A stretch of DNA of 64,000 nt from an uncultured Actinomycetota bacterium (lineage in GTDB: Bacteria; Actinomycetota; Actinomycetes; JACCUZ01), in assembly GCA_963726615.1 (NCBI GenBank), contig CAVSCX010000015.1, forward strand, positions 13,822 to 77,821, in the 5' to 3' direction. The notes beneath the pieces were generated by a model. It saw nothing but the letters and a program-made list of their open reading frames with translations, was not told the origin of the DNA and searched no databases. Below are positions 4,349-18,871 of this stretch, piece after piece. The stretch's first letter is position 1, and every line of letters begins with the position of its first letter. The translations under genes and the position numbers were made by a program.

Positions 4349-4817
4349 GGACCCACCGTGCCGGAAGGACAGCCCGCCGGCATCGACCCGCCGGTCGCAG
4401 GCCCGGCGTGTCGGCGCCGGTCCCTCGACCGGCCGATCGACTTCGACCTGATCGAGCGCCGGTTCGTGCTGCCGCCGACGATCCGGCTCGACCGCGAGCA
4501 GGACCTCATCTGCGACGACGCCTACTACTCGCACGTCTACGGCGGCGACGCCCAGCGCCGGCTGCGCGAGCAGCACCCGCCGCGCGACGGCTGACCCCGG
4601 CGACGAGCCGGCGGGACGGCGGACTAGTACAGAAGGACTAGGCCGACCTGGTGACAGTGCGCCCCCGGTGAACCCTGTGTTGCCAGTGTGTCACCACACC
4701 CGCCGGTATCCGGCTACTTCCGCCGTTTCCTGATGGTTCGTACCCGGCTCCACCTACCCGGTCGACACCCCCCGCCTTGCCTATAGCCGGGACGAGCGGC
4801 GGCGACCTAGCGTTCCA

Positions 4818-5531
4818 GTGCGTTCCCGATGTACCTGGGGGGGAGCGCTCGGTGCGGGGGGATTCGGGTGCGTGGGGGGTGAACTGGTGGACGTCTTCGA
4901 CGCCCGGGACGAGGTCCTCTCGTCCCCCGGGCAAGCGCTGTGCCATGACCTCAAGCAGCCGGTGGCGGCGATCCTCGTCATCGCCTCGGAGGCGGCGTCG
5001 CTGCCGGCGCACGAGCTCAGCGACGGCGTGCGGTCCCGCCTGCGGCAGATCGAGGAGCAGGCCGAGGCGCTGGCCGAGGTCATCGACTCCACCCTCGGCC
5101 CCGTTCCGGACACGGACGCCGACGCACCGGCGACAACCGACCTGGACGCCACGCTGGCCGCTGTCGTGTCGCTGACCCGGCTGACCTACGGCGGGGAGGT
5201 CGCGCTGGCCGCCGACGCCGCACGGGCGCGGGTCGGGCTGGGGCACGTCCTGGTACGCCGGGTGCTCGGCAACGTCCTGGGCAACGCCACCCGCGCGGCC
5301 GGTGCCGGCGGCAGGATCTGGGTCACGTCGTCCCGCATCCCTGCACGGGTCGTGGTCGACGTCGACGACGACGGTCCCGGCTGGGGGCAGATGGCTCCCG
5401 GTCACGGGCTCGGTCTCTCCATCGTCACCGAGGTGATGGCGGCGACCGGCGGGTCGGTCACGGCGCTCGTGCTGCCGACCGGAGGCACCCGGGTGCACCT
5501 CGAGTTCCCGATCGCGACGCATGCGGGCTGA
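4818..5531 (+). CDS. sensor histidine kinase, short and apparently cytoplasmic (HisKA_3-type H-box plus HATPase_c)
   Basis: H-box LCHDLKQPVAAI, N-box LGNVLGNATRAAG, DDDGPGWG and GHGLGLSIV motifs. No TM or sensor domain. Stops upstream contain the N-terminus, so the exact start is uncertain (a GTG near 4870 is an alternative). Ends 7 nt before the response regulator. Confidence 0.75.
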   Translation: MRSRCTWGGALGAGGFGCVGGELVDVFDARDEVLSSPGQALCHDLKQPVAAILVIASEAASLPAHELSDGVRSRLRQIEEQAEALAEVIDSTLGPVPDTDADAPATTDLDATLAAVVSLTRLTYGGEVALAADAARARVGLGHVLVRRVLGNVLGNATRAAGAGGRIWVTSSRIPARVVVDVDDDGPGWGQMAPGHGLGLSIVTEVMAATGGSVTALVLPTGGTRVHLEFPIATHAG

Positions 5532-5537
5532 GGGCTG

Positions 5538-6188
5538 ATGCGGTTGGTCATCTGCGACGACCATCGGCTGCTGCTGGACACCCTCGGCGCGGCTCTGGCC
5601 GGTCGCGGGTACACCGTCGCGGCCCTGGTGACCACGGCCGCGGACGCCGTTGCGGCGGTGCGCGACAACGACCCGGACATCGCGATCGTCGACGTGCACC
5701 TGGCCGCGGGCAGCGGCCTGGCCGCCGCGGCGGAGATCGTGCGCGCGCACCCGCGGACCAAGGTGCTCATGCTCTCGGCCTCACCCGACGCGGAGTTGGT
5801 CCGCGCCGCCCTCGAGATCGGCGCGGCCGGCTTCGTCCGCAAGGACCAGAGCGTCGACGGCATCGTGCGTCGCCTCGAGCAGGTCGCGGACGGCGAGGCG
5901 GCCTTCGACCTCGTGGTGCTCCGGCGGGCGGTCTCGGCGCCGACGGCCAGCGGTGCTGCTCAGCAGCTGGCCCGGCAGCTCAGCAAACGCGAGCGTGAGG
6001 TGCTCGCGCTGCTCGTCGAGGGACGCGCCACCTCCGAGATGGCCAGCGAGCTGCACATCGCGGACAGCACCGCACGCACCCACGTCCAGAACGTGCTCGT
6101 CAAGCTCGGTGCGCACTCGCGGCTGCAGGCCGCGGCGATCGCGGCGCAGACGGGCCTGCTGGACCTCCTCGTCCAGCGCGGGCCCTAG
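5538..6188 (+). CDS. NarL/LuxR-family response regulator
   Basis: Begins MRLVICDDHRLLLDTL with DIAIVDVHL receiver motifs. C-terminal LuxR HTH region: KREREVLALLVEGRATSEMASELHIADSTARTHVQNVLVKLG. Confidence 0.9.
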   Translation: MRLVICDDHRLLLDTLGAALAGRGYTVAALVTTAADAVAAVRDNDPDIAIVDVHLAAGSGLAAAAEIVRAHPRTKVLMLSASPDAELVRAALEIGAAGFVRKDQSVDGIVRRLEQVADGEAAFDLVVLRRAVSAPTASGAAQQLARQLSKREREVLALLVEGRATSEMASELHIADSTARTHVQNVLVKLGAHSRLQAAAIAAQTGLLDLLVQRGP

Positions 6189-6265
6189 GGCGAGTCGGGA
6201 GACGCGCTAGACGCGACGACCTCGGTCTGGACGGCCGCCTACTGCATCGGGCGTAGGCCCGGTTC

Positions 6266-7009
6266 ATGTCAACAGCGGTTCCGGCGAACTGGCGGTGCCG
6301 TGATGGTGAACGGGTGCCAGACATCTCCGTCCTGCTCGTCGGCAGGCAGCGCACCCTGACGCAGAGCCTGGCCGAGCGGCTGGAGGTCGAGGCCGACCTG
6401 CTCGTCGTCGGCGTAGCGGAGACCCTGACGCAGGCGCGCACCTCGGTCGTCTGGCTCTGCGCCGACGTCGTGCTGCTGGACTGCGACCTGGAGACCCCGA
6501 CCAGCGAGCTGGCGGCGACACTGGGTGCCGCCGGCCAGGCCCCGCGCATCGTGCTGCTCGCCGACGCCGCCCGGGAGGCCGATGTCGCGGTGCTCGTCCG
6601 GGCCGGGGTGTCCGGCTGGGTGGACAAGGCCGACGACCTGGCCCAGCTGTTCTCGACGGTCCGGGGCGTCGCCGCCGGCGAGGTGTGGATCCCGCCGCGG
6701 CTGCTCGGAAGCGTCGTGCAGAGCTACCGCGACGGGGAGGCGGCGCGACGTCCCTGGGACGGGCTGCACACGCTGTCCGAACGCGAGCGGGAGGTCCTGT
6801 CCCGGATGGTGGCCGGACGCAACCGGGCCCAGATCGCGTCCGAGATGGTGCTGTCCGAGAGCACCGTCCGCACCCACGCGCAGAACGTCCTGCGCAAGCT
6901 GGGTGTGCACTCCTCGCTGGCCGCGGTCGCGCTGGCCCGGCGGGCCGGGCTGACCGCGCCGGGCGCCGGACCGGTGCCGGCCGGGTCAGGGGCGGGGGAG
7001 CCCGCGTGA
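6266..7009 (+). CDS. LuxR-family response regulator, atypical receiver, first gene of the downstream glycosylation operon
   Basis: VLLVGRQ...VVLLDCDLE receiver-like region. C-terminal SEREREVLSRMVAGRNRAQIASEMVLSESTVRTHAQNVLRKLG. Its stop overlaps the GTG of the next gene (GTGA). Start uncertain (ATG 6266 or GTG 6314). Confidence 0.75.
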   Translation: MSTAVPANWRCRDGERVPDISVLLVGRQRTLTQSLAERLEVEADLLVVGVAETLTQARTSVVWLCADVVLLDCDLETPTSELAATLGAAGQAPRIVLLADAAREADVAVLVRAGVSGWVDKADDLAQLFSTVRGVAAGEVWIPPRLLGSVVQSYRDGEAARRPWDGLHTLSEREREVLSRMVAGRNRAQIASEMVLSESTVRTHAQNVLRKLGVHSSLAAVALARRAGLTAPGAGPVPAGSGAGEPA

Positions 7010-9489
7010 GCACCCGGACCTTCGACTCCCCGCCCACCGAGCGGGCTGCCGGCACTCCCGCGGTGACGGTCATCGTGCCGACCCGCAACGAGGCCGGCAA
7101 CGTGGCAGTCCTGGTGGAGCGGCTGGACGCCGTGCTCCGCGGTGTTCGCGCCGAGATCCTGTTCGTCGACGACAGCACAGACGACACACCGGACCGCATC
7201 CGGTCGGTCGCGGAGCGCCCCGGACCGGAGGTCCGGCTCCTGCACCGCAGCGGCTCCGAGCGGGTCGGCGGGCTGGGCGGGGCGGTGCTGGCCGGCCTCC
7301 GGTCGGCCCGCGGCAGCTGGGCCGTCGTGATGGACGGGGACCTCCAGCACCCGCCGGAGTCGGTCCCCGAGCTGGTGCGGGCCGGTGACGACAGCGGTGC
7401 CGACCTCGTCGTCGCGAGCCGCTACCGCGGGGCCGGCAGCGCCGCCGGCCTGGCGGGCTCGACCCGTCGCCGGGTGTCCGGCGCCGGTACGCGCCTCGCC
7501 CGCGGCGCCTTCCCCCGGCGGCTGGCGGGCTGCACCGACCCGATGAGCGGGTTCTTCGCCGTGCGCCGGGGCGCGATCGACCTCGACCGGCTGCGTCCCC
7601 GCGGCTTCAAGATCCTGCTCGAGATCGTGGCCCGGTCGCCCCGGCTGCGGCTGGCCGAGGTGCCCTTCGCCTTCCAGCAGCGCCACAGCGGCGAGAGCAA
7701 GGCCTCGCTGCGCGAAGGTCTGCTGCTGGCCCGCAAGCTCGTCGGGCTGCGCGCGGCCTCGCTGCTCGGTGGCCGGGACGCGATGCCGGCCAGGGTCCTC
7801 GGCTTCGGTGCGGTCGGTGCGACCGGCATCGTGGTCAACAGCCTGGCCCTCTGGCTGCTCGTCGACGGCGCGGGTGCCGGCGTGCTCGTCGGGGCGAGTC
7901 TCGCGACCCAGGCGTCGACCCTCTGGAACTACCTGCTCACCGAGTCCCTGTTGTTCCGGGGGCCGAAGGCCCGGTCCCGCTCGACCCGGTTCGTCGGGTT
8001 CGTCGCGGTGAACAACGTCGTCCTCCTCCTCCGGCTGCCGTTGCTCGCCTGGCTGGTCCGCGGTGCGGGCGTCGACTACCTCGTCGCGAGCGTCCTCACC
8101 CTCCTGGCCGCGTTCGCCGCGCGGTTCCTGGTCTCCGACCGCTACCTCTTCCGCTCAGGAGCATCCATGTCCTCTACCCACGACCGGGTCGTCACGGCGA
8201 GCCCCGCTGGCGAGTCGGCGCGCGTTCCCGCGCCGGACTGCGCCACACCCGCGACCCCTGCACGCCGTGGCAACCCGGTGGACCTCGTCGTCGACCTTCG
8301 GGAACGGTCCGTCGTCCCCCGGCAGCGCACGCGCACCGAGGCCCTGCCGTTCCGGTACGACGTGCACGGTCTGCTCACGCTCGGGTCCGAGGTGCCGCTC
8401 GCCGAGCTGGCCGGCTTCGCCACCGAGCCTTCTGCGGAGCGCGTGGACATCGAGATCAGGCGTGGCGTGGTGGGTGGCGGCGGCTTGCGACGTCGTACCC
8501 GCGTGACGCAGTTCGCGACCCCGGCGGCTGTCACCTACCAGGAGCACCTCGGCCGCTTCGGCTCGGACTTCGCGGTCGAGATGGGCACGACGATCCACGT
8601 CGTCGTCGGGCCGTTGCTGGTCCGGTCGCCGCACGTCCTCTACACGAACGTCGTCGAGGCTCTCCTGCGGTTCGTCCTCGTCTCGCGCGGTCACGTCCTC
8701 CTGCACTCAGCGTGCCTCGAGCTCGGTGGTCGCGGCGTCCTGCTCTCGGCCCTGACCGACACCGGCAAGACCGGGACCATCCTGCGGCTGGTCCGGGAGA
8801 ACGACAGCAGGTTCCTCTCCGACGACATGACGGTGCTGCGCCCGGACGGCACGGCGCTGTCGTTCCCCAAGCCGCTCACGATCAGCCAGCACACCCTGCG
8901 AGCGGTCGAGGCGGGCGACCTGACCCCGCGTGAGTGGCGCAGGCTGCGCATCCAGAGCCGGCTGCACTCCAAGGAGGGTCGCGGCATCGGGGTACGTCTC
9001 GGCGAGATGAACATCCCGATCATGAGTCTCAACGCCGTGACCCAGGTGGTCGTCCCGCCGCCCAAGTACGACATCGAGCGTCTGGTCCCGTGCGAGCGCG
9101 CCAGCAGCGTCCAGGTCCAGGACCTGTTCGTCATCGAGCGCCGCCCCTACGAGCTCCGTGACATCGACCCGGACCTCCTGCTGGACGAGCTCATCGCGAA
9201 CACCGACGACGCCTACGGCTTCCCGCCCTTCCGCTACTTCGCGCCGGCGCTGGTGGTCGAGGGTCTGGGCTACGAGGAGCTGCGGGCGGCCGAGCGGGCG
9301 ATCCTGGCCGAGGCGCTGGTCGGCATCCGGGCCCGCCGGCTGGCGACGCCGGACTTCACCTGGGCGGACCTGATCCCCGTCCTGGCCACCGACGGAGGCA
9401 CGACGCAGACGACCACGGGGGTCATCAGGGAGCCGGAGCCGCCGCTCGGGCTGCCGCCGCTGTCAGCAGCCGCCGGGCACGGCGAGTAG
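7006..9489 (+). CDS. tri-domain fusion: GT2 polyprenyl-phosphate sugar synthase (DPM1/GtrB/ArnC-like) + GtrA-like membrane domain + HPr-kinase-C-like P-loop domain
   Basis: VTVIVPTRNEAGNV...ILFVDDSTDDTPD...VVMDGDLQHPPE...DPMSGFFAVRR (GT2). 4-TM GtrA-like segment (FGAVGATGIVVNSLALWLLV...). C-terminal LLHSACLELGGRGVLLSALTDTGKTGT resembles the HprK C-terminal P-loop. One continuous frame (no stop). An internal AGGAG-N5-ATG at 8167 lies at the GtrA/kinase boundary. Confidence 0.75.
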   Translation: MSTRTFDSPPTERAAGTPAVTVIVPTRNEAGNVAVLVERLDAVLRGVRAEILFVDDSTDDTPDRIRSVAERPGPEVRLLHRSGSERVGGLGGAVLAGLRSARGSWAVVMDGDLQHPPESVPELVRAGDDSGADLVVASRYRGAGSAAGLAGSTRRRVSGAGTRLARGAFPRRLAGCTDPMSGFFAVRRGAIDLDRLRPRGFKILLEIVARSPRLRLAEVPFAFQQRHSGESKASLREGLLLARKLVGLRAASLLGGRDAMPARVLGFGAVGATGIVVNSLALWLLVDGAGAGVLVGASLATQASTLWNYLLTESLLFRGPKARSRSTRFVGFVAVNNVVLLLRLPLLAWLVRGAGVDYLVASVLTLLAAFAARFLVSDRYLFRSGASMSSTHDRVVTASPAGESARVPAPDCATPATPARRGNPVDLVVDLRERSVVPRQRTRTEALPFRYDVHGLLTLGSEVPLAELAGFATEPSAERVDIEIRRGVVGGGGLRRRTRVTQFATPAAVTYQEHLGRFGSDFAVEMGTTIHVVVGPLLVRSPHVLYTNVVEALLRFVLVSRGHVLLHSACLELGGRGVLLSALTDTGKTGTILRLVRENDSRFLSDDMTVLRPDGTALSFPKPLTISQHTLRAVEAGDLTPREWRRLRIQSRLHSKEGRGIGVRLGEMNIPIMSLNAVTQVVVPPPKYDIERLVPCERASSVQVQDLFVIERRPYELRDIDPDLLLDELIANTDDAYGFPPFRYFAPALVVEGLGYEELRAAERAILAEALVGIRARRLATPDFTWADLIPVLATDGGTTQTTTGVIREPEPPLGLPPLSAAAGHGE

Positions 9490-9506
9490 CAGAAGAGGAC
9501 CGAGAC

Positions 9507-12500
9507 ATGAGTGCTCACCGGGCACGTCGCACCACCCCCCGTCAGCTCGGCACCGTCGTCGTCGCCGTCGCGCTGCTGTCGGCGGTCGGAGGCACCGCCC
9601 ACGCAGCGAAGGCACCGGACACGCTGATCGACTCCGGCCCGGCCGCTGCGAGCAACAGCACCAGTGCCACCGTCACCTTCCACAGCAAGCCGAAGAAGGC
9701 CACGTTCTCGTGCCAGCTCGACGCCGGGGCGGCCGTCGCCTGCGACGCGGGTGCGATCACCTACTCGGCGCTGACCGCCGGCACGCACCTCGTCACCGTG
9801 ACGGCCTCCGCCAGCGGTCTGGACGACCCGTCGCCGGCGACGTGGTCCTGGACGGTCGACCTCTCGGCGCCGACCGCGCCCACGAACCTGGCGGCGACGA
9901 CGCCGAAGCCGAAGTCCGTGGCGCTGACCTGGACCGAAGGAAGCGACGACCGGGCCGTCACCGGCAACGACGTCTACCGGGACGGTGCGAAGGTGGCGAG
10001 CGTCGGGGCGGTGACCAGCTTCACCGACGCGTCACCAGCGGCGCGTCGCACACCTATGCGGTGGTGGCGAAGGACGCCGCCGGCAACTCCTCGCCGATGA
10101 GCGCGGCGGTCGCCACCGGCGCGGCAGGCACGACCTACGACCCGCACCTGACGCGGTCGCCCTACCTGACCGACCTGGTGGGCACCGGGGTCACTGTCAA
10201 CTTCGGCACCGACCGGTCGCAGTCCGTCGCCAGCGTGAGGTACGGCGCGGTCGGCGCCGGCGGCGCATGCACGCCGACGACCACGGTCGCGGCGACCAGC
10301 ATCGTCGTAGCAGTCGGCAGCGTGAACGAGTTCCAGTGGAAGGCCCGCCTCGACCTCCCCGGCCCCGGCAGCTACTGCTACCGGCCGTTCCTGGGCGGCA
10401 CGGACCTGCTGGCCGGGAACACCTCACCGGTCGCCACGACCCAGGTCCCGCCCGGGTCGACGCAGCCGTACTCCTTCGCGGTGTTCGGCGACTGGGGCCA
10501 GGCCTACGCCGCACCGGGCAACGTCAACCAGACCAAGGTGATGTCGCAGCTCGCGGCCAGCGGGGTCCGGTTCGCGCTGACGACCGGGGACAACGGATAC
10601 CCGTCCGGGTCGCAGCTCAACTACGGCGACCTGCAGCAGAGCGGCGCCGACATCAGCGGCATCTTCGGCCCCGGCCAGTGGGGCGTGCCGGGGGCCTCGA
10701 TCCCGTTGTTCCCGGCGATCGGCAACCACGGCCTGGCCCGCAACGACGGGATCCACCCGCACTTCGGCATCTGGCCGCAGGACAACGCCGTGTCCACGTC
10801 GGGCGGCAGCTACGCGCGGACGAGCTACCCGAGCATCAACGGCAGCACGGCAGCCAGCTATCCCAGCCCGTGGTACGCCTTCGACGCCGGCAACGCGCGG
10901 TTCTACGTCCTGGACGCGGCGTGGCCGGACCTCAACGGCGGCAGCGCCGGGGTCTACGCCACCGAGGCCGCCGCGCACTGGACGCCCGGCGCGGCCCAGT
11001 ACGAGTGGCTCAAGCGCGACCTCCAGACCCACCCCTCCGGCCTGAAGTTCGCGTTCTTCCACTACCCGCTCTACTCCGACCAGCCCTCGGAGGCGTCGGA
11101 CACCAGCCTGCGCGGCGCGTCCTCGCTCGAGGGGTTGCTGGTGGCCAACGGGGTGAACATGGCGTTCCAGGGGCACGCGCACATCTACCAGCGCAGCAGC
11201 GGCCTCGGCGGCCTGGTCAGCTACCTCACCGGCGGCGGTGGCGCCAAGGCCCAGTCCACCGGCGCGTGCAGCCCCGAGGACAGGTACGCGGTCGGCTGGT
11301 CGTACACGAAGTCGCGCGGGACCAGCTGCGGCGCCGCGAAGGCGCCGAAGTCGGACGCCGAGGTCTACCACTTCCTCAAGGTGACGGTGAACGGTCGCCA
11401 GGTCACCGTCGCGCCGACCGACTCGACCGGCAAGACGTTCGACGTGCAGACCTACACCTTCGACCCGGCCCCGGAGACGTTCATCGACAGCGGCCCTCCG
11501 GACGCGGCCGCCAGCACCACCGCGACCTTCGGGTTCCGCGCGAGCAGTGGCGCGGCGACGTTCAGCTGCCGGCTCGACTCCGGCCCGGCGACGGCATGCA
11601 CCAGCCCGACGACATACACCGGGCTCGCGCAGGGACCGCACTCCTTCGCCGTCACCGCAACGGCCGGCGGCGTCAGCGACCCGGCGCCGGCGACGTGGTC
11701 CTGGACGGTCGACACCGTCGCGCCGTCGGCGCCGAGCAGCATCACCGTGACGGCCCCGTCGCCGTTCCGGGTCGACGTGAGCTGGCCGACGGCGTCGGAC
11801 AACATCGGCGTCACCGGCTATGACGTCTACCGCGACGGCGCGCTCCTCAGTGCGCTCGGTGTCGCCACGTCGTACAGCGACGGCTCGGTCCTGCCCGCGT
11901 CGACGCACGAGTACGCCGTTCGGGCCCGGGACGGCGCGGGAAACGTGTCGGCGTTCGTGTCCGCCAGCGTGACCACGCCGGCGATCGCCCCACCTGTCTT
12001 CGCGGACGGCTTCGAGTCCGGCAACCTGACCGCCTGGACCACGACGTCCGGCCTGACAGTGCAGAGCGGCACAGTGCACAGCGGGGCGTGGGCTGCCGTG
12101 GGCGCCAGCCCGACCGGAGTCACCTGGGCGAAGAAGACGCTGCCCGGCGGCCCGTACCCCGACGCCTACGCCTCCCTGGCGTTCCGGGTCAACAGCCAGG
12201 GCTCGCAGACCACGTTGCTTCGGCTGCGCAGCACGCCCACGGGCACCGCGGCCGGCTACCTCTACCTGACGCCCGCCGGCAAGCTCTCCTTCCGCAGCGA
12301 TGCGCTCGCGGCCGGGACCGTCAGCGCGGTCGTTCCCAGCACCGGGGCCTGGCACACGGTCGAGCTGCACCTCACGGTGGGCACGTCCGCGGGCGCCCTC
12401 GGATCCGTCGAGGTGTGGCTGGACGGCGCTCCCGTCGCGGCGCTGAGCAGCTCGTCGGTCGACGTCGGCTCGACCCCGGTCGGCGTGGTCCAGATCGGTG

Positions 12501-12583
12501 ACACGGCCGGCAACGGCACCGGCACCGGCTGGGACATCGGGTACGACGACGTGGCGTTCTCCACCAGCCGCCTGGGGACCTGA
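9507..12583 (+). pseudogene. secreted calcineurin-like metallophosphoesterase with fibronectin-III domains, split by a 1-nt frameshift near 10031-10034 (possible sequencing indel)
   Basis: Signal peptide MSAHRARRTTPRQLGTVVVAVALLSAVGGTAHA. The N-terminal module ...VYRDGAKVASVGAVTSFTDAS stops matching its internal duplicate ...VYRDGALLSALGVATSYSDGSVLPASTHEYAV exactly where the frame changes to ...VTSGASHTYAVVAKDAAGN. Metallophosphoesterase motifs GDWGQ, GDNGY, GNHG and GHAHIYQR follow. Confidence 0.7.
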
Positions 12584-12584
12584 G

Positions 12585-14210
12585 GTGGTCGACGAGCACC
12601 GTGCCGAGCTGGGCCGGTCGCTCGCGCTCACCGGCTCGTGGGCGCGGCTCACGGCCCTGCGGGTCCGCGCCGGCGGCGTCACCCCGGCCGCGGTGCGGGC
12701 CCGGTTGGGCCGGGTCGCTGCGCCGGTCCTGGCGGCGGGCGCCCGGCCGCTCGACGTCGGCCTGCTCGGCCTCGCGGTGCTCGTCGCCGCCGCGCTCCGC
12801 CTGGTGGACCTCGGACGGATCGGGCTCAACAGCGACGAGGCGGTCTATGCCGGGCAGGCCGCCTCGCTCGCCGGCAACCCGAGCTTCACCGACAACTTCC
12901 CGGTGATCCGTGCGCACCCGCTGCTGTTCCAGCTGGTCACGTCTCCGTTCTACCGCCACGGCATCCCGGACGTCCCCGGGCGGTACGTGGGCGCCGTGTT
13001 CGGCATCGCGACAGTCGCCCTCGTCTTCGTCGTGGGTCAGCAGCTGTACGGCCCCCGGGTGGGGTCGCTCGCCGCGCTGCTGCTCGCGGTGTCGCCGTAC
13101 CACGTGGTCATCACCCGGCAGCAGCTGCTGGACGGCCCGATGACCCTGTTTGCCACCGGAGCGCTGGCCTGCCTCGCGGCCATGGGTCGCAGCGGGCGCG
13201 GCCGTTGGCTGGTTGCGGCGGGTGGCTGCCTCGGGGCGGCGGCGCTGACCAAGGAGACGGCGGTGATCCTGGTCGCCGCGGTGTTCGCGTTCCTGTCCCT
13301 CGCCCCGCAGTTCTGGCGGCCGATGCGGCACGTGATCGGCGGGGCCGCGCTGGCGCTGGTGCTCGTCGTGGCCTACCCGGTCCTCACGAGCCTGTCCGGT
13401 GGGGCGCGCGGCGGGCAGTCCTACCTCCTCTGGCAGCTGACCCGCGGCCCCAACCACAGCTTCGGCTTCTACTTCACCGCGGTGGGCGTCTCGATGGGCC
13501 TGCTGCTCGTCGCGGCGGCCGTGGCCGGGCTGCTCGTGCTGCACCGGTCGTCGTCCTGGCGCGAGACCCTGCTCGTCTCGTGGGTCGTCGTCCCGCTGCT
13601 GTTCTTCGAGATCTGGCCGGTCAAGGGCTTCTCCTACCTGCTCCTGCTGCTCCCGGCGATCGCCGTCCTGGCGGCCAGACTGCTGGCCTGGCTCTTGGAC
13701 CGGCCCACCGGCTCGGCGACGTCCCGGACGGCCGGAGCACTCGTGACCCTGGTCGTGGTGGCCTCGCTCGCTGTCCCCGCAGCCGGCTCGGTGCTCGCGC
13801 CGAGGTCGTCCAGCCTGGCCGGAGCCGGCGGGACACCGGGCGGTCGCGAGGCCGGGCGGTGGGTCGCCGCGCACGTGCCTGACGGCGCCAGGCTGATGAC
13901 CATCGGTCCGTCGATGGCCAACATCATCCAGTACTACAGCGGGCGGGCCGCGGACGGCCTGTCGGTCAGTCCCAGCCCGGCGCACCGCAACCCGAGCTAC
14001 CTGCCGGTGCCCAACCCGGACGCCGCGGTGCGCTACGGCGACTACCAGTACCTCGTCTGGGACGCCTACTCGGCGCAACGGTCGTCGCACTTCGCCGCCA
14101 AGCAGCAGGAGCTGATCGGCAGGTACCACGGCATCGCCGTGCACACCGAGACGGCGCGGATGGACGGCCGGACGCAGCCGGTCATCGTGGTCTACGAGAT
14201 GCACCCATGA
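12585..14210 (+). CDS. GT39/PMT_2 (ArnT-like) polyprenyl-phosphate-sugar-dependent membrane glycosyltransferase
   Basis: GTG start 2 nt after the upstream stop, with GGGGA RBS. Multi-TM protein with NSDEAVYAGQAASLA loop motif and about 12 predicted helices, typical of PMT_2/ArnT GT-C enzymes. Confidence 0.75.
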   Translation: MVDEHRAELGRSLALTGSWARLTALRVRAGGVTPAAVRARLGRVAAPVLAAGARPLDVGLLGLAVLVAAALRLVDLGRIGLNSDEAVYAGQAASLAGNPSFTDNFPVIRAHPLLFQLVTSPFYRHGIPDVPGRYVGAVFGIATVALVFVVGQQLYGPRVGSLAALLLAVSPYHVVITRQQLLDGPMTLFATGALACLAAMGRSGRGRWLVAAGGCLGAAALTKETAVILVAAVFAFLSLAPQFWRPMRHVIGGAALALVLVVAYPVLTSLSGGARGGQSYLLWQLTRGPNHSFGFYFTAVGVSMGLLLVAAAVAGLLVLHRSSSWRETLLVSWVVVPLLFFEIWPVKGFSYLLLLLPAIAVLAARLLAWLLDRPTGSATSRTAGALVTLVVVASLAVPAAGSVLAPRSSSLAGAGGTPGGREAGRWVAAHVPDGARLMTIGPSMANIIQYYSGRAADGLSVSPSPAHRNPSYLPVPNPDAAVRYGDYQYLVWDAYSAQRSSHFAAKQQELIGRYHGIAVHTETARMDGRTQPVIVVYEMHP

Positions 14211-15583
14211 CCGGCCGGGTGCGGAGCGGCGGGGTCGCCGTCGGTGTCCTTGCCGTGCTCGCCGGCGTCGTGCTTGGCGGCGTCGTGGTGTCCGGCCCGG
14301 GCGCCGCGGCAGCGACCGGGCCGACAGCGTCGACCCCGATCGGCCACGTGGTGGTGATGACGCAGGAGGGCCACAGCTTCGACAGCTACCTCGGTCGTCG
14401 GCACGGTGTCGACGGCCTGCCGTCGGGCGTCTGCCTGCGGGTCGAGCAGGCGGCGGCGCCCCCGTGCCAGCGGCCGTTCGCGCTCGCCCGGACGGCCGCG
14501 CGCCCGCGGCTCGACAGCTCCGCCGCGGCCCAGGCCACCGCCGTCGCGGACGGGCGGATGGACGGGTTCGTGCTCGCCCAGGCGTCGTCGCGGAGAACGG
14601 GACGCGACGCCATGGGCTACTACCGGCCCGCCGACCTCCCGGTCCTCAACCAGCTGGCGGACCACGGCGTGGTCTTCGACCGGTGGTTCAGCGCGGTGCC
14701 CGGCGGCGGGATCGTCAACCAGCTCTTCGCCGTCTCGGGCGCCGCCGCGGCGGACGTGGCGGCGGTGCCGGAAGCAGGGTGGGCCGACCTGCCCCTGGTC
14801 TTCGACCGGCTCGAGGCGGCCGGAGTGAGCTGGAAGGTGTACGTCGAGAACTACGAGCCGGCGCTGACCGGCGCGACAGCCGGCGTCGCGGCGCGGCGCG
14901 GCGGCCAGGTGGCCCGGGTCCCGCTGCTCGCCCTGCCCAGGTACGAGCGCGACCCGGCACTCACCTCCCATGTCGCGGACCTCGGCGACTACTACCGCGA
15001 CCTGCGGTCCGACTCGCTGCCCGCCGTGTCCTGGGTGGTCACCACGTCGTCGACGGAGAAGTCACCGTCGCGCCCGGTCGTGGGGCAGGGCGCCGTGCGG
15101 GACGTCGTCAACGCCCTGGGAGAGAGCTCCGCCTGGCCGGACTCGATGTTCGTGCTCAGCTACGACTCGCCCGGCGGCTGGTACGACCACGTGGTCCCGC
15201 CCAGGACCGTCGACGGGCGCCTGGGGCTGCGCGTCCCCGCGGTCCTGGTGAGCCCGTACGCCAGGGCGGGCTCCGTCGACCACACCACGCTGGACAGCGC
15301 CGCCGTCCTGCGCTTCCTGCAGGACAACTGGAGCCTGGCCCCGCTCAGCACGCGGGTCAGCGCGTCCCCGGGCCTCGGGTCGGCCCTGCGCTTCGACCGG
15401 CCGGCCCAGGCGCCGGTGCTTGTCAGCGCCGCCCAGCCGAGACCGCCGATCGACCAGCCGAACGGCCGGGTGATCGTGGTCGGCTACCTCACCGCGATCC
15501 TGGTCGCGGCGGGGTCAGTGCTCTGGGCCGCGCGCGACCGCGCCGCGATCGTGCCCGCCGACGTCCGGCTGGACACGCCGTGA
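14207..15583 (+). CDS. phosphoesterase-family protein (phospholipase C / acid phosphatase AcpA-like, PF04185), secreted
   Basis: Overlaps the upstream gene as ATGA. Signal peptide present. HVVVMTQEGHSFDSYLG phosphoesterase signature. Confidence 0.75.
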   Translation: MTGRVRSGGVAVGVLAVLAGVVLGGVVVSGPGAAAATGPTASTPIGHVVVMTQEGHSFDSYLGRRHGVDGLPSGVCLRVEQAAAPPCQRPFALARTAARPRLDSSAAAQATAVADGRMDGFVLAQASSRRTGRDAMGYYRPADLPVLNQLADHGVVFDRWFSAVPGGGIVNQLFAVSGAAAADVAAVPEAGWADLPLVFDRLEAAGVSWKVYVENYEPALTGATAGVAARRGGQVARVPLLALPRYERDPALTSHVADLGDYYRDLRSDSLPAVSWVVTTSSTEKSPSRPVVGQGAVRDVVNALGESSAWPDSMFVLSYDSPGGWYDHVVPPRTVDGRLGLRVPAVLVSPYARAGSVDHTTLDSAAVLRFLQDNWSLAPLSTRVSASPGLGSALRFDRPAQAPVLVSAAQPRPPIDQPNGRVIVVGYLTAILVAAGSVLWAARDRAAIVPADVRLDTP

Positions 15584-17112
15584 GCCGCCGCGGGCTGCTC
15601 CGCGCCGCCGTCCTCGCCGTCCTGCTCCCGGGGCTGGCCGCAGCGGCGGTGCCGGCCACTGGCGCGGGGGCGACACCGGGACGGGTGGTCGTCACCACGA
15701 CGCCATCGCTGGCGGGGGTGCGGCTGCTGGTGGGCTCCTCCGTCGTGACGACGGGGTCCGACGGGCGGGTCGCCGCCCGCGTCTCCGACATCAACGGCAT
15801 CGCCTCCAGGGTGTCGCTGGCCGGCCGCGCCTTCGGCGCCCGCCACCGCCTGTCGCTCGCGTTCGTGGCGCCGGCGCCGCACACCGTGCGGTACGAGAGC
15901 CACCTCACCGTCGGCCTCGACGTCCGGTCGCGGGTCCGGCTGCGGGTGGACCCCGGCACCACCGGCGCGGCCCGCAAGGAGGTGCGCGCCGTCCGGCTGC
16001 ACGCGGTCACCGGCGAGACCCGGCTGGTGGACCCGCGCCGGACCACGACGCTGTGGTTGCCGTCGCGGAAAGCCCGCCGCAGCGGGTCGAGCGCACCCGG
16101 GGCGGTCACCTGGACGGTGGACAGCCTGCGCGCAGGTGCGGGCTCGACGTTCGCCACGTCGCGAGCGCCGTTCGACCCGTTCCGGTCCCGCACCTGGCGG
16201 CTCGAGCTCCGGCCGGTGAAGGGGACCGTCGTCGTCGACACGGTCCCCGCGACTCCGGGGGTCACCTTCGCGCTCGACGGCGCGACGTTCACCACCGACG
16301 GAGCCGGGCACGCGACCTCGATCGTCGCCGACCTCAACGGCGTCGACAAGCGGCTGCGGACCACCCGGGCCGAGGCCGGCGAGGTGACGGTCTCGGTCTC
16401 CCGGGTCGGCCGGCTTGCTCCGCAGGCAGCGTTCCAGCGGCACCTGGTGGTCGCCCTCGCCGTCAGCCGGCCGGTCGACCTTCGCTTCACGGACCCTGCG
16501 GGACGCAGGGTGCCGGCGAGCCGGGTCAGCGAGGTCCGCCTGGACAGCGGGGCGCACACCGTGCTGCTCGGCCCGGACCAGCTCCGCGAGGCGGTGCCGC
16601 TGCTGTCCAGCATCGGCAAGCTTGTCGACGGCGTCTGGGCGCCGCAGCCCGTCACCTACGCGGTCACCCGGGTCGGCGTCGAGGGCTCCAACGCCGTCTT
16701 CTCGGGCCGTCAGCGGATCGACCCGGCCGTGGGCCGCGACTGGGACATCTCGGTGTCGGTGTTCGACGTGCACGTGACGGTGCGCGACGCGCTGTTCGGC
16801 CACCGGCTGTCGTCCGCCGCGCAGGTGCTGCGGCCCGACGGCGTCCGCTCGGCGGTGGCGCTCGACTCCGGCCGGCCGACCGTGATCCGGTCCCTGGTCC
16901 GCGGTGAGTACACGCTGAGCACAGACTCTGCGGTGGTCGGGACGGACACCCGGATCCTGGTGAGCAAGACCTCCGACGTCGAACTGCGGGTGGTCACCCT
17001 GTTGGACGCCGCGGTGGTGACAGTGCTGCTGCTCATGGTCGCCGGCGGCCTGGTCGGCCTCGGGCTCACGCTGCGACGGCGGGCCCGCCGCGCCCGCCCT
17101 GCAGCGGCATGA
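15580..17112 (+). CDS. secreted hypothetical protein with C-terminal TM anchor
   Basis: GTG start overlaps the upstream stop (GTGA). Begins VSRRGLLRAAVLAVLLPGLAAAAVPA (signal peptide) and ends with a hydrophobic helix plus RRRARRARPAAA. Confidence 0.6.
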   Translation: MSRRGLLRAAVLAVLLPGLAAAAVPATGAGATPGRVVVTTTPSLAGVRLLVGSSVVTTGSDGRVAARVSDINGIASRVSLAGRAFGARHRLSLAFVAPAPHTVRYESHLTVGLDVRSRVRLRVDPGTTGAARKEVRAVRLHAVTGETRLVDPRRTTTLWLPSRKARRSGSSAPGAVTWTVDSLRAGAGSTFATSRAPFDPFRSRTWRLELRPVKGTVVVDTVPATPGVTFALDGATFTTDGAGHATSIVADLNGVDKRLRTTRAEAGEVTVSVSRVGRLAPQAAFQRHLVVALAVSRPVDLRFTDPAGRRVPASRVSEVRLDSGAHTVLLGPDQLREAVPLLSSIGKLVDGVWAPQPVTYAVTRVGVEGSNAVFSGRQRIDPAVGRDWDISVSVFDVHVTVRDALFGHRLSSAAQVLRPDGVRSAVALDSGRPTVIRSLVRGEYTLSTDSAVVGTDTRILVSKTSDVELRVVTLLDAAVVTVLLLMVAGGLVGLGLTLRRRARRARPAAA

Positions 17113-18347: not shown

Positions 18348-18432
18348 GCCGCCAGGGGACCCGGAAGCCGGATCCTCGCGAGGCGCATCCCGACACCGGC
18401 CGCGACGGGCCGATCGGTGCTTCAATGCTCGG

Positions 18433-18714
18433 GTGGCCGACCGTGTGGACGCCCGGGTGCGGGTGTCGTGCGCCCACTGCGGCACGATCGAGGTGCCGGC
18501 GGCCGAGGTGCGCCTGGTGATGGGCCGACCGGAGACTGCCGGCGACCCACCGCGCGACGAGGTCGAGTTCCGCTGCGGCACCTGCGGGCTCGGCGGTTCG
18601 ACCCGCGTGGACGAGCGGGCCGCCCGGCTCGTGGCCCGGGCGGGTGCCCCGGTAGCGGGGCCACCGGCGCCCCGGGCGGCGCCGCCCGCGCGCGGCCGAC
18701 GCCGGCCTCGCTGA
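18433..18714 (+). CDS. small Cys4 zinc-ribbon protein
   Basis: VRVSCAHCGTIEVPAAEVRLVMGRPE...EVEFRCGTCGLGGSTRVDE. Same CxxC-(27-30)-CxxC architecture and flanking pattern as the 25153-25509 product. Confidence 0.4.
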   Translation: MADRVDARVRVSCAHCGTIEVPAAEVRLVMGRPETAGDPPRDEVEFRCGTCGLGGSTRVDERAARLVARAGAPVAGPPAPRAAPPARGRRRPR

Positions 18715-18871
18715 CTGCGCGCGCGTGCCGGGTCGCCGCTGCCGGGCGACCGACGACGGGTGGAGGTCGACCGCGGGCCGGAGGTCCGGTGACCGCGGGC
18801 CGTAGGGCCCTGGGGTCCGGCGCCCTGGCGCGGACACGCTGAGCGCACCGGTCGTCCCTGGGAGGAACGTC

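What the first reader, a model, noticed from the sequence alone, without database searches (positions are those of the whole stretch)
7006..9489. Unusual single-ORF fusion of GT2 sugar-phosphate-lipid synthase, GtrA-like domain and an HPr-kinase-like P-loop domain
One uninterrupted 828-codon frame joins three parts. The first is a DPM1/GtrB-type GT2 catalytic domain. The second is a 4-TM GtrA-like segment. The third is a C-terminal domain of about 440 aa whose core (LLHSACLELGGRGVLLSALTDTGKTGT) resembles the HprK/P C-terminal kinase P-loop. HprK-like kinases outside carbon-catabolite control are rare and here one would be tethered to a glycolipid synthase. An AGGAG-N5-ATG at 8167, exactly at the GtrA/kinase junction, suggests the kinase part might also be made separately.
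Basis: partly seen in the sequence, partly recalled or inferred. Interest (0 to 1): 0.65.

Follow-up and report, generated by a model that had tools for sequence, protein, structure and literature searches.

The report
Mannolipid synthase carrying kinase-like domain
This is a real single gene, common in Actinobacteria, that joins a lipid-linked-mannose synthase to an uncharacterised ATP-binding, kinase-like domain which can probably also be made on its own from an internal start site; what that extra domain does is still unknown.

Summary
Bases 7006-9489 are one uninterrupted 827-codon gene, the coding frame is continuous across the junction, and a 98%-identical relative has the same boundaries.

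- "GT2 + GtrA" is not a fusion. Residues 19-377 align end-to-end with Pyrococcus dolichyl-phosphate-mannose synthase (5MLZ, E = 3e-46). They keep every published type-III DPMS motif except DAD->DGD.
- The C-terminal ~400 aa form a confident two-lobed fold of the PEP-carboxykinase/HPr-kinase P-loop superfamily. Walker A, the DD motif and about 60 other residues are invariant. It fails all HprK, HprK-related, ScmC and PEPCK cut-offs, so it is a separate, uncharacterised family.
- The fusion is not rare. There are 496 loci in reference genomes and at least 1,324 full-length protein clusters, and it is the dominant architecture in Actinomycetota. It is usually clustered with a PMT-type GT-C, a glycoside hydrolase and secreted phosphoesterases.
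- The internal AGGAG-N5-ATG has comparative support. SD plus ATG are kept in the window's clade despite variable codons (P ~ 1e-20), and the same signal starts a separate gene in split relatives.

The likely role is an ATP-dependent phosphotransferase acting at the cytoplasmic membrane face on the lipid-linked intermediate. This is inferred, not shown.

The parts
7006..9489 (+). Whole gene: 827 codons plus stop. It encodes a DPMS-like synthase, a linker and a PEPCK/HprK-superfamily domain ('X').
   Evidence: ORF and GC3 frame plot. The 98%-identical P0268 has identical boundaries.
6997..7009 (+). Main start region: GGAG (6997-7000), a 5-nt spacer, then GTG 7006 overlapping the TGA (7007-7009) of the upstream LuxR-type regulator gene. 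This arrangement suggests translational coupling.
   Evidence: Sequence read directly. The same 4-nt overlap occurs in L083.
7060..7764 (+). GT-A (GT2) catalytic domain with interface helices, residues 19-253.
   Evidence: Pfam PF00535 E = 4e-21. Alignment to 5MLZ. AF2 model and Foldseek give 5MLZ/9EP0/5MM1 at E ~ 1e-25.
7333..7356 (+). Metal and donor-diphosphate motif DGDLQHPP (residues 110-117), equivalent to PfDPMS 89-DADxQHPP-96.
   Evidence: Residue mapping. The motif is invariant in 88 homologs, with G111 in 86/88. The motif definition comes from PMC12992685.
7780..8151 (+). Four-helix GtrA-like/DPMS transmembrane domain (residues 259-382). It carries N278, N308, F370 and R373, the equivalents of the PfDPMS polar pocket N248/N277, gate F338 and R341.
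   Evidence: Pfam PF04138 at 58 bits against a cut-off of 26.1. Helices 259-288, 293-316, 325-353 and 358-382 in the AF2 model. Motif mapping.
8157..8169 (+). Internal ribosome-binding site AGGAG (8157-8161), a 5-nt spacer, then in-frame ATG 8167 (Met388). It would yield a free 440-aa protein of linker plus X.
   Evidence: Sequence. The ATG sits at the same aligned position in 30 fused loci of the clade, and 25/30 have an SD core against 9.7% background. AGR Arg codons are 51% against 5%, and GGR Gly codons 96% against 32%. The same signal is the true start in split relatives.
8161..8268 (+). Disordered, sequence-variable linker (residues 386-421).
   Evidence: pLDDT < 50 in both models. Linker peptides are unrelated among homologs.
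8275..9396 (+). Domain X (residues 424-797): an N-terminal beta-rich lobe, a P-loop lobe and a helical insertion. The fold belongs to the PEP-carboxykinase/HprK superfamily.
   Evidence: AF2 pLDDT 85, pTM 0.83. Foldseek gives ATP-PEPCK at E ~ 1e-6 (prob 1.0, ~400-480 columns, TM ~0.4) and HprK/P 1kkl at E = 3e-4 (TMt 0.59). NCBIfam family-wide hits.
8698..8772 (+). LLHSAC (His567) through the Walker A loop S-A-L-T-D-T-G-K-T (residues 581-589; [A]x4GKT).
   Evidence: H567, A582, T586, G587, K588 and T589 are invariant in 88 sequences. Aligned to the HprK/P and PckA P-loops by hhalign.
8812..8832 (+). FLSDDMT (residues 603-609): the paired-Asp motif equivalent to HprK 'LVADD' and PEPCK 'IGDDEH'.
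   Evidence: Invariant in 88 sequences. hhalign alignments.
4734..7009 (+). Upstream histidine kinase (4734-5531), LuxR-type response regulator (5538-6188) and a second LuxR-type regulator with a degenerate receiver domain (6266-7009). These are probably local regulators and are conserved only in close relatives.
   Evidence: Pfam. Present in 7-8 of 54 loci.
9507..12583 (+). Secreted FN3/Ig plus calcineurin-like metallophosphoesterase gene, broken in the window by a 1-nt deletion near 10029.
   Evidence: ORFs and Pfam. Intact at 1,025 aa in L083. Present in 37/54 loci.
12600..14210 (+). PMT_2-type GT-C glycosyltransferase, the likely user of the lipid-linked sugar outside the membrane. The start coordinate is approximate.
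   Evidence: Pfam PF13231/PF02366. Present in 47/54 loci. Fused to X in P0122, P0138, P0150, P0160 and P0219.
14207..18347 (+). Three membrane-anchored extracytoplasmic proteins: a PF04185 phospholipase-C/acid-phosphatase-like phosphoesterase (14207-15583), an unknown 510-aa protein (15580-17112) and a GH71/GH99/WbsX-like protein (17109-18347).
   Evidence: Pfam and NCBIfam. N-terminal signal/anchor plus C-terminal TM helix. Present in 45 and 46 of 54 loci.

Best explanation
The gene encodes a bifunctional inner-membrane protein that belongs to a conserved actinobacterial cell-surface mannosylation cluster.

Shown:
- Residues 19-382 are a type-III-DPMS-like polyprenyl-phosphate mannose (hexose) synthase. 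This comprises a GT2 catalytic domain plus its own four-helix GtrA-like membrane domain, including the pocket proposed to flip the mannolipid.
- A disordered linker of about 36 aa follows. Because the preceding membrane domain has an even number of helices, it leads back to the cytoplasm.
- The linker ends in a ~375-aa two-lobed P-loop domain (X) of the PEP-carboxykinase/HPr-kinase superfamily. Its Walker A Lys/Thr, paired Asp, His and many other polar residues are invariant.
- X always travels with the polyprenyl-phosphate-sugar machinery. It is fused or adjacent to the GtrA-like domain, the GT2 domain and/or the PMT-type GT-C.
- In the window's clade a conserved internal SD+ATG at the junction is under nucleotide-level selection.

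Inferred:
- X is an active ATP-dependent (possibly pyrophosphate-dependent) phosphotransferase working at the cytoplasmic face of the membrane.
- It acts on the lipid-linked intermediate held by the GtrA-like domain. That means either phosphorylating the mannose of polyprenyl-P-mannose or re-phosphorylating the polyprenol carrier.
- The phosphate is later handled outside by the secreted phosphoesterases that recur in these clusters.
- Cells make both the tethered form and a free 47-kDa X.
For: The gene and its frame:
- The ORF, GC3 frame continuity and the 98%-identical relative agree.

The synthase module:
- 5MLZ matches at E = 2.8e-46 over residues 19-377.
- Foldseek ranks 5MLZ/9EP0/5MM1 first, at E ~ 1e-25.
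- 17 of 18 type-III DPMS motif positions are met and invariant in 88 homologs, including the mannose-contacting N248/N277 equivalents.
- Fusions to an N-terminal mannose-6-phosphate-isomerase-type cupin exist in relatives.

Domain X:
- The AF2 model has pLDDT 85 and pTM 0.83.
- Foldseek probability is 1.0 to ATP-PEPCK and HprK/P.
- 63/64 family members hit HprK_rel_A, 60/64 hit HprK_rel_B and 55/64 hit HprK.
- hhalign aligns the P-loop and DD motif to HprK/P (E = 6.5e-5) and PckA (E = 3.7e-3).
- About 60 positions in X are invariant.

Association with the glycosylation machinery:
- 71 of 82 loci have GtrA-X in one ORF, most of them also with GT2.
- Architectures found are GT2-GtrA-X-PMT_2, GtrA-X-PMT_2, X-PMT_2, X-GtrA and GT2-X-GtrA.
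- PMT_2, phosphoesterase and GH are all present in 44 of 54 loci.
- A different set of phosphoesterases (Metallophos-CBM96, His_Phos_2) sits next to the gene in Dactylosporangium.

The linker:
- It is disordered, and full-length pTM is 0.64.

The internal start:
- In split relatives the same signal starts a separate gene.
Against: - No substrate of X has been identified, and nothing here measures activity.
- No known PEPCK/HprK-fold enzyme acts on a lipid or lipid-linked sugar. The characterised close relatives phosphorylate protein or peptide serines.
- GT-C enzymes normally release polyprenyl phosphate, which needs no kinase for recycling.
- The link to phosphoesterases is guilt by association only.
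- AF2 gives no confident contact between X and the synthase (pTM 0.64).
- The sugar identity (mannose) is inferred from motif conservation, not shown.
- The P-values for the internal start treat related loci as independent.
- The SD-ATG could be a relic of an ancestral split gene, although its shifting codon phase argues for continued selection.
Confidence: 0.5

Rival explanations
1. X is a regulatory protein Ser/Thr kinase-phosphorylase in the manner of HprK/P or the lasso-peptide kinases. It would phosphorylate the synthase, the GT-C, a partner or a glycosylation substrate protein, and so tune mannolipid output to the cell's energy state.
For: The nearest sequence families are all protein or peptide kinases: HprK_rel_A/B, HprK and ScmC. 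The core motifs H...GxGVLL...GK[ST]...DD match HprK/P. X is tethered by a flexible linker and may also be made free, which suits a regulator.
Against: The HprK signature loop and the rest of the catalytic domain are not matched, and scores lie far below the cut-offs. The full-length fold resembles the small-molecule enzyme PEPCK, with a two-lobed cleft. X persists where the GT2 domain has decayed to a remnant (L002, L016, L018), so the catalytic domain in cis is not its obligatory target. No conserved candidate substrate protein was seen.
Confidence: 0.17
2. X is a nucleotide-driven or nucleotide-gated partner of the GtrA-like membrane domain. It would power or license translocation of the mannolipid across the membrane, making an ATP-coupled lipid-linked-sugar flippase.
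For: The GtrA-like domain is X's most constant partner: GtrA-X, X-GtrA and GtrA-X-PMT_2 occur, and GtrA is retained when GT2 is lost. The flipping pocket residues are invariant. PfDPMS has been proposed to flip its own product (PMC12992685).
Against: PEPCK/HprK-fold proteins are phosphotransferases, not motor ATPases. Dol-P-Man flipping is reported as energy-independent (PMC12992685). The many invariant polar residues outside the P-loop suggest a specific second substrate.
Confidence: 0.12
3. X acts on a soluble metabolite that feeds the synthase, for example a mannose phosphate or nucleotide intermediate, and the fusion serves substrate channelling.
For: Relatives with a mannose-6-phosphate-isomerase-type cupin fused in front of GT2-GtrA-X point to a link with donor-sugar supply. 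PEPCK-like folds bind small phosphorylated acids. There are weak hits to the FomB small-molecule kinase in 3/64 members.
Against: The known GDP-mannose pathway needs no P-loop kinase. X is also fused to the GT-C and to GtrA alone, neither of which uses soluble donors. In the distant clade X follows the last membrane helix within 3-5 residues, which places it at the membrane surface.
Confidence: 0.1
4. The fusion is an artefact: two ordinary adjacent genes merged by a missed stop or indel at about 8100-8200.
For: The window does carry at least one 1-nt indel relative to a close relative, at about 10029 in the next gene. Split versions exist in some genomes.
Against: GC3 phase is continuous across the junction. 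The 98%-identical L083 and the Illumina MAG L003 are both fused, with no indel in 2,484 nt. 71 loci and at least 1,324 protein clusters show the fusion.
Confidence: 0.02

Closest known systems
Type-III dolichyl-phosphate mannose synthase (Pyrococcus furiosus PfDPMS; PDB 5MLZ, 5MM0, 5MM1, 9EP0)
   Same: It has the same GT2 catalytic domain plus interface helices plus four-helix GtrA-like membrane domain in one chain. The match is E = 2.8e-46 at 30% identity. The metal/diphosphate motif, the Dol-P phosphate ligands (SRY, R131, S135, K178), the polar pocket N248/N277, gate F338 and R341 are all conserved.
   Different: The organism is bacterial (Actinomycetota, ~74% GC) rather than a hyperthermophilic archaeon. 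The motif reads DGD instead of DAD. The carrier must be a polyprenyl rather than a dolichyl phosphate. It carries an extra ~440-aa C-terminal linker plus P-loop domain that is absent from PfDPMS.
Three-component periplasmic glycosylation systems (GtrB/GtrA/GtrC; CsbB/GtcA/YfhO; ArnC/ArnEF/ArnT)
   Same: The logic is the same: a GT2 polyprenyl-phosphate glycosyltransferase, a GtrA-family membrane module and a GT-C transferase encoded together. This comparison rests partly on my own knowledge of these systems.
   Different: Here the GT2 and GtrA-like parts are one protein. A fourth, cytoplasmic P-loop component (X) is fused or adjacent, sometimes fused to the GT-C itself. Membrane-anchored phosphoesterases and a GH71/99-like protein are conserved in the cluster.
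HPr kinase/phosphorylase (HprK/P; PF07475, TIGR00679; PDB 1KKL, 1KO7) and HprK-related RiPP kinases (TIGR04352, TIGR04355, ScmC TIGR04249/PF27840; lasso-peptide kinases)
   Same: The P-loop core is shared: His, then G-x-G-V-L-L, then x4-G-K-[ST], about 15 residues, then h-h-x-D-D. hhalign gives E = 6.5e-5, and 63/64 family members hit HprK_rel_A. Foldseek gives 1kkl at TMt 0.59.
   Different: Only about 44 columns align and the HprK signature loop (EIRGLGII) is absent. Scores of 14-24 bits fall far short of cut-offs of 33-240. The flanking lobes differ. The context is membrane glycosylation, not carbon-catabolite control or peptide maturation.
ATP-dependent PEP carboxykinase (E. coli PckA, PDB 1AQ2; A. 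succiniciproducens 1YVY)
   Same: These are the best full-length structural matches (E ~ 1e-6, probability 1.0, 400-480 aligned columns), with a two-lobed arrangement. The P-loop, the DD motif and a downstream Lys (K622 aligned to PckA K288) line up.
   Different: TM-score is only about 0.4 and identity 10-12%. There is no Pfam PEPCK hit. The oxaloacetate/PEP-binding residues were not shown to be conserved.
LpxK (lipid A 4'-kinase), as a functional analogy only
   Same: It is a P-loop kinase that phosphorylates a lipid-linked sugar at the cytoplasmic face of the membrane. This is from my own knowledge and is the kind of reaction proposed for X.
   Different: There is no detected sequence or fold relationship. 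LpxK belongs to a different P-loop kinase class.
Mycobacterium tuberculosis Ppm1 (Rv2051c), a two-domain polyprenyl-phosphate mannose synthase
   Same: It is an actinobacterial precedent for a mannolipid synthase fused to a second functional domain that is a separate gene in other species (from my own knowledge).
   Different: The Ppm1 partner is a membrane Lnt-like acyltransferase domain, not a P-loop domain. The Ppm1 catalytic domain lacks the GtrA-like membrane domain.

Membership tests
HPr kinase/phosphorylase (PF07475 / TIGR00679) | Score above the curated family cut-off | tested here: not met
   PF07475 scores 13.8 bits against a cut-off of 33.3 (E = 0.041). TIGR00679 scores 15.7-17 bits against 240.
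HPr kinase/phosphorylase (PF07475 / TIGR00679) | Walker A P-loop followed by the paired-Asp 'LVADD' motif, preceded by a conserved His | tested here: met
   H567, A582-x4-G587-K588-T589 and D606-D607 are invariant in 88 sequences and are aligned to HprK/P by hhalign and the HMMs.
HPr kinase/phosphorylase (PF07475 / TIGR00679) | HprK signature loop (EIRGLGII, invariant in the three PDB HprK/P sequences) and the remaining C-terminal catalytic domain | tested here: not met
   The hhalign alignment stops at template column 46, before this loop. The query has PKPLTISQHTL at the corresponding place.
HPr kinase/phosphorylase (PF07475 / TIGR00679) | HPr (ptsH) substrate and a role in carbon-catabolite control | not testable with these tools
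   Only a 64-kb window is available. The gene context is cell-surface glycosylation.
HprK-related kinases A/B and ScmC (TIGR04352, TIGR04355, TIGR04249; Pfam PF27840) | Score above the curated cut-off; context of a PqqD/radical-SAM peptide-maturation cassette | tested here: not met
   The best scores are about 23 bits against a cut-off of 200. Still, 54-63 of 64 members give sub-threshold hits. PF27840 appears only as a 'weak' precomputed hit. No peptide-maturation genes lie nearby.
PEP carboxykinase-like fold superfamily (PEPCK + HprK/P) | P-loop-containing nucleotide-binding lobe of PEPCK/HprK topology, with an N-terminal lobe | tested here: met
   Foldseek probability is 1.00 to more than 30 ATP-PEPCK chains (E = 1e-6 to 1e-4, 400-480 columns) and to HprK/P chains. 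TM-scores are modest: 0.4 when normalised by the query and 0.5-0.6 when normalised by HprK/P.
PEP carboxykinase (enzyme family, PF01293 / PRK09344) | Family-level sequence match and the oxaloacetate/PEP-binding residues | tested here: not met
   There is no Pfam hit. NCBIfam PRK09344 gives E = 0.16. hhalign to PckA residues 231-313 gives E = 3.7e-3 at only 9% probability.
Type-III DPMS (definition in PMC12992685) | 89-DADxQHPP-96 (x = L/F/Y) | tested here: inconclusive
   The query has D110-G-D-L-Q-H-P-P117. Seven of eight positions are identical, and A90 is Gly in 86/88 homologs.
Type-III DPMS (definition in PMC12992685) | Dol-P phosphate ligands R117 (SRY), R131, S135, K178 (KIL) | tested here: met
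   S138-R139-Y140, R154, S158 and K202-I-L are present. R, R, S and K are invariant in 88 sequences.
Type-III DPMS (definition in PMC12992685) | Polar-pocket N248 and N277 and gate F338 (plus R341 in Thermococcales) | tested here: met
   N278, N308, F370 and R373 are invariant or nearly so in 88 sequences.
Type-III DPMS (definition in PMC12992685) | GDP-mannose:dolichyl-phosphate mannosyltransferase activity; archaeal distribution | not testable with these tools
   Activity was not measured. The organism is an actinobacterium, outside the distribution reported in the paper.
GtrA family (PF04138) | Score above the gathering threshold; four-helix membrane module | tested here: met
   The score is 58 bits against a cut-off of 26.1, over residues 267-382. 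The AF2 model has four long helices.
Three-component (GT2 / GtrA / GT-C) glycosylation system | All three components encoded together | tested here: met
   GT2 and the GtrA-like domain are in the target gene. A PMT_2 GT-C lies at about 12600-14210 and is present in 47/54 related loci. The function of the system was not tested.

The most novel reading that the evidence does not exclude
X is the first PEPCK/HprK-fold enzyme that works on a lipid-linked substrate. One possibility is a cytoplasmic-face kinase that phosphorylates polyprenyl-phosphate-mannose or recycles polyprenol. The other is that it couples ATP to mannolipid flipping by the GtrA-like domain. Either would define a fourth, energy-consuming component of three-component glycosylation systems and an unrecognised phosphomannosylation pathway of the actinobacterial cell surface. 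The window's clade would set the stoichiometry of X by internal translation initiation.
Probability: 0.3. Interest if true: 0.8.

Novelty: new variant of a known kind. Interest (0 to 1): 0.55.

Why it matters
Polyprenyl-phosphate-mannose is the donor for protein O-mannosylation and for cell-envelope mannans and lipoglycans in Actinobacteria. This group includes antibiotic producers and relatives of pathogens.

A conserved ATP-binding, kinase-like domain sits on the synthase, the flippase-like module or the GT-C transferase. That implies a step in lipid-linked sugar metabolism (phosphorylation, carrier recycling, gating or regulation) that current models of these systems do not include.

The family is large and is annotated only as "glycosyltransferase" or "GtrA family protein". 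It occurs in culturable genera such as Streptomyces, Micromonospora, Actinoplanes and Flexivirga, so the question can be tested directly.

Two further points stand on their own:
- A bacterial family meets nearly the whole motif definition of a DPMS type recently described as archaea-only, including its proposed self-flipping pocket.
- The internal ribosome-binding site is a clean comparative example of one held under selection inside a fused gene.

Tried and rejected
Searches and look-ups that gave nothing:
- An exact-sequence look-up of the window protein found no record.
- Sequence searches of X against the PDB, with both the single sequence and the profile, gave nothing real.
- Literature searches for HprK + GtrA + glycosyltransferase, for polyprenol-phosphate-mannose synthase + HPr kinase, and for GtrA/GT-C fusions in Actinobacteria returned nothing relevant.
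- A search that included 'ScmC' was swamped by unrelated acronyms.

Interpretations rejected:
- A missed stop or assembly indel at the junction. The frame plot and independent fused relatives exclude it.
- Start at GTG 6685. That stretch shows no coding signal in this frame.
- X as a bona fide HprK/P or PEPCK.
- GT2 + GtrA as an unusual fusion. It is the PfDPMS architecture.
- A fixed docking of X on the synthase. Full-length pTM is 0.64 and the linker is disordered.
- The two-component regulators as part of the conserved system. They occur in only 7-8 of 54 loci.

Not resolved:
- Model coordinates could not be inspected, so active-site geometry and membrane-facing surfaces of X were not analysed.

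Full report

A single open frame runs from 6685 to 9489. Codon-position GC content shows the coding signal (GC3 >= 0.8) switching on at about 7006. It stays in one frame across the proposed GtrA/kinase junction to the stop. The stretch 6685-7005 is not coding in this frame because it belongs to the upstream regulator gene.

GTG 7006 overlaps that gene's TGA (GTGA) and has GGAG five bases upstream. An independent metagenome assembly carries a 98%-identical protein called with exactly the same 827 residues (P0268, locus L083). The two genes differ by substitutions only, with no indel in 2,484 nt.

The window does contain at least one single-base indel elsewhere, near 10029 in the next gene. The check therefore mattered, but the junction is clean. 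The best-matching reference-genome locus (Illumina MAG L003) is also fused.

**2. The N-terminal 385 residues are one known enzyme type, not a fusion of two parts.**

Pfam finds GT2 and GtrA_DPMS_TM. Residues 19-377 align end-to-end (E = 2.8e-46) with the crystallised Pyrococcus furiosus dolichyl-phosphate mannose synthase, including its four-helix membrane domain. The full-length AlphaFold model finds the same structures first (5MLZ, 9EP0, 5MM1; E ~ 1e-25), ahead of ArnC and GtrB.

A 2026 paper defines 'type-III DPMS' by explicit motifs and proposes that its GtrA-like domain flips the product (PMC12992685). I mapped those motifs through the HMMER alignment:
- DADxQHPP becomes DGDLQHPP.
- SRY/R117, R131, S135 and K178 are present.
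- The mannose-contacting N248 and N277, the gate F338 and R341 are present.

All of these are invariant or nearly so in 88 homologs. The only departure is Ala->Gly in the first motif. The most economical reading is a polyprenyl-phosphate mannose synthase of the PfDPMS type. The sugar is inferred, not shown. Relatives with a mannose-6-phosphate-isomerase-type cupin fused in front fit this reading.

**3. The C-terminal domain (X).**

With an alignment of 64 homologs, AlphaFold gives a confident model (pLDDT 85, pTM 0.83). The first ~36 residues are disordered. They are followed by a beta-rich lobe, a P-loop lobe and a helical insertion.

Foldseek against the PDB returns ATP-dependent PEP carboxykinases over 400-480 columns (E ~ 1e-6, probability 1.0, TM ~0.4). 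HprK/P catalytic domains match the P-loop lobe (E ~ 3e-4; TM 0.5-0.6 normalised to HprK/P).

At sequence level the window protein gives only sub-threshold hits (Hpr_kinase_C E = 0.04; HprK_rel_A E = 5e-5). Across the family the signal is consistent: 63/64 members hit HprK_rel_A, 60/64 HprK_rel_B, 55/64 HprK and 54/64 ScmC. All fall far below the curated cut-offs.

I retrieved true PDB sequences of HprK/P and E. coli PckA, using fragments recalled from memory only as bait. Profile comparison gives E = 6.5e-5 to HprK/P over 44 columns and E = 3.7e-3 to PckA over 52 columns. In both cases the alignment covers the Walker A loop through the paired-Asp motif. The HprK signature loop EIRGLGII is not matched.

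His567, A582-x4-G-K588-T589, D606-D607 and about 60 other positions in X are invariant, which points to an active enzyme with a specific second substrate. X is therefore a distinct, uncharacterised family inside the PEPCK/HprK superfamily.

**4. How common is it, and what does it travel with?**

- X has more than 2,100 homologous clusters in the 90% database and 238 clusters at 50% identity with E <= 1e-30.
- The full-length fusion has at least 1,324 clusters at E <= 1e-50.
- A scan of one genome per species found 496 loci. The best 80 are essentially all Actinomycetota. They include Jatrophihabitans and Frankiales-like MAGs, Flexivirga, Leekyejoonella, Blastococcus, Streptomyces, Micromonospora, Dactylosporangium and Actinoplanes.
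- In 71 of 82 loci GtrA and X are in one ORF, usually with GT2 as well.
- Other arrangements exist: GT2-GtrA-X-PMT_2 (1,310 aa), GtrA-X-PMT_2, X-PMT_2, X-GtrA, GT2-X-GtrA and cupin-GT2-GtrA-X.

Of 54 loci with enough flanking sequence:
- 47 have the PMT_2-type GT-C.
- 45 have a PF04185 (phospholipase-C/acid-phosphatase-like) phosphoesterase.
- 46 have a GH71/GH99-like protein.
- 44 have all three of the above.
- 37 have the secreted metallophosphoesterase.

The window has exactly this order. The phosphoesterase, an unknown 510-aa protein and the GH-like protein all have an N-terminal signal or anchor plus a C-terminal membrane helix, so they work outside the membrane.

In Dactylosporangium the gene keeps a GT-C next to it, but the hydrolase is a GH5. 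The phosphoesterases there are a CBM96-metallophosphoesterase and a histidine-phosphatase-family protein. Phosphoesterases thus recur even when the families differ. Sources name these proteins only 'glycosyltransferase', 'GtrA family protein' or 'dolichol-phosphate mannosyltransferase'. I found no paper describing the domain.

**5. The internal start.**

In the window's clade (30 fused loci) the linker is 11-41 residues long and unrelated in sequence between loci. Even so, an in-frame ATG sits at the same aligned position in every case. It is followed by Thr or Ser in 29 of 30.

A GGAG/GAGG/AGGA core lies 4-17 nt upstream in 25 of 30 loci. The rate at other in-frame positions of the same genes is 9.7% (binomial P ~ 4e-21). 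A core of five bases or more occurs in 17 of 30 loci against 2.6%.

The five residues before the Met differ in nearly every locus (27 different peptides), and the purine motif occupies different codon phases. It is built from codons that are otherwise rare in these genes:
- AGA/AGG make up 18 of 35 Arg codons there, against 5.2% gene-wide (P = 5e-14).
- GGA/GGG make up 24 of 25 Gly codons there, against 32% gene-wide (P = 4e-11).

These tests treat related loci as independent, so the exact P-values are optimistic. The pattern is nevertheless one of selection on the RNA rather than on the protein.

In split relatives (L002/L009, L005, L016, L018) the same AGGAG-N5-ATG is the true start of a separate X gene. 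It lies one base out of frame with the GtrA ORF. In L002, L016 and L018 no GT2 match remains, and in L002 the ORF retains only a short N-terminal GT2-like remnant.

The more distant clade (Streptomyces, Micromonospora and others) joins X to the last membrane helix through only 3-5 residues and has no ATG or SD. The full-length model agrees with a tethered but independent module. The linker (residues 386-421) is disordered, and pTM drops to 0.64 although both halves are confident.

**6. Mechanism.**

What is shown:
- A PfDPMS-like mannolipid synthase.
- A cytoplasmic location for X. This follows from topology, because X comes after an even number of helices and lies on the same side as the GT2 domain.
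- Intact phosphotransfer motifs in X.
- Obligate association of X with proteins that bind polyprenyl-phosphate(-sugar).
- A cluster whose other products are extracytoplasmic: a GT-C, a glycoside hydrolase and phosphoesterases.

What is inferred: X transfers phosphate from ATP (or pyrophosphate, as HprK/P can) to the lipid-linked intermediate presented by the GtrA-like domain. The target would be either the mannose of polyprenyl-P-mannose or free polyprenol produced outside. The secreted phosphoesterases would act on that phosphate later. LpxK is a functional analogy for a P-loop kinase acting on a lipid-linked sugar at the membrane face (my own knowledge).

I give this about 0.5, including the shown parts. 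The rivals are:
- An HprK-like regulatory protein kinase (0.17).
- An ATP-coupled or ATP-gated flippase partner (0.12).
- A soluble-metabolite kinase for donor supply (0.10).
- An assembly artefact (0.02).

The persistence of X with the GtrA-like domain where GT2 has decayed argues against X existing merely to regulate the catalytic domain in cis.

**7. Verdict.**

It is not a rarity of this genome. It is the standard form of a large, unstudied actinobacterial protein family. The novelty lies in what has not been described:
- A conserved PEPCK/HprK-superfamily domain as a fourth component of GT2/GtrA/GT-C glycosylation systems.
- Its apparent dual expression from an internal start.
- A bacterial near-match to the 'archaea-only' type-III DPMS.

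I rate it a new variant of a known kind, with interest 0.55.

Noticed in passing
window 9507-12583 (indel near 10029): The secreted FN3/metallophosphoesterase gene is split into two frames (ORFs 9507..10100 and 9710..12583) by a 1-nt deletion relative to the 98%-identical locus L083, where it is an intact 1,025-aa gene. L083 in turn has its PMT_2 gene split. This probably reflects sporadic assembly indels rather than pseudogenes.
   Followed up: partly
window 7060-8151 (residues 19-382): The synthase module fulfils the published motif definition of type-III DPMS, including the proposed self-flipping pocket, except for DAD->DGD. The defining paper (PMC12992685) reports this type only in hyperthermophilic archaea. 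An actinobacterial family of more than 1,300 clusters is a near-match.
   Followed up: yes
window 6266-7009 and 7006-7009: The second LuxR-type regulator has only a sub-threshold receiver domain (E = 2.8e-5, below the Pfam cut-off). Its stop codon overlaps the synthase start (GTGA), suggesting translational coupling. The kinase/regulator trio is conserved only in close relatives (7-8 of 54 loci).
   Followed up: partly
window 14207-18347: The PF04185 phosphoesterase, an unknown 510-aa protein with no family hit, and the GH71/GH99/WbsX-like protein each have an N-terminal signal/anchor and a C-terminal membrane helix. Their genes overlap by 4 nt, which looks like a co-translated set of membrane-anchored extracytoplasmic enzymes.
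   Followed up: partly
L002/L009 (9319-11317), L016, L018: In Nanopelagicales-like MAGs X is a separate gene that overlaps the end of a GtrA-like ORF, and no GT2 match remains. In L002 that ORF keeps only a short N-terminal GT2-like remnant. X and the membrane module therefore persist without the catalytic GT2 domain in cis.
   Followed up: partly
L039 (Dactylosporangium sp. McL0621), 4695-18918: Here the DPMS-X gene sits in a different context: PMT_2 GT-C, GH5, a CBM96-metallophosphoesterase, and upstream a histidine-phosphatase-family protein and an ECF-type sigma factor. Non-homologous phosphoesterases recur next to the gene.
   Followed up: partly
proteins P0122, P0138, P0150, P0160, P0190, P0203, P0219; P0337-P0354: Rosetta-stone architectures were found: GT2-GtrA-X-PMT_2 in a single 1,310-aa chain, GtrA-X-PMT_2, X-PMT_2, the permuted forms X-GtrA and GT2-X-GtrA, and mannose-6-phosphate-isomerase-type cupin-GT2-GtrA-X (~920 aa, for example in Marmoricola).
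   Followed up: partly
window 18806-19885: A polyphosphate kinase 2 gene lies just downstream of the cluster. It is also next to the cluster in L083, and PPK2 homologues lie upstream in L007 and L077. This may be a coincidence or another link to phosphate metabolism.
   Followed up: no
alignment A1 against NCBIfam: Three of 64 X-domain sequences give weak hits (best E = 0.004) to the FomB phosphonate-monophosphate kinase family. This is a lead that small-molecule kinases exist near this part of the superfamily.
   Followed up: no
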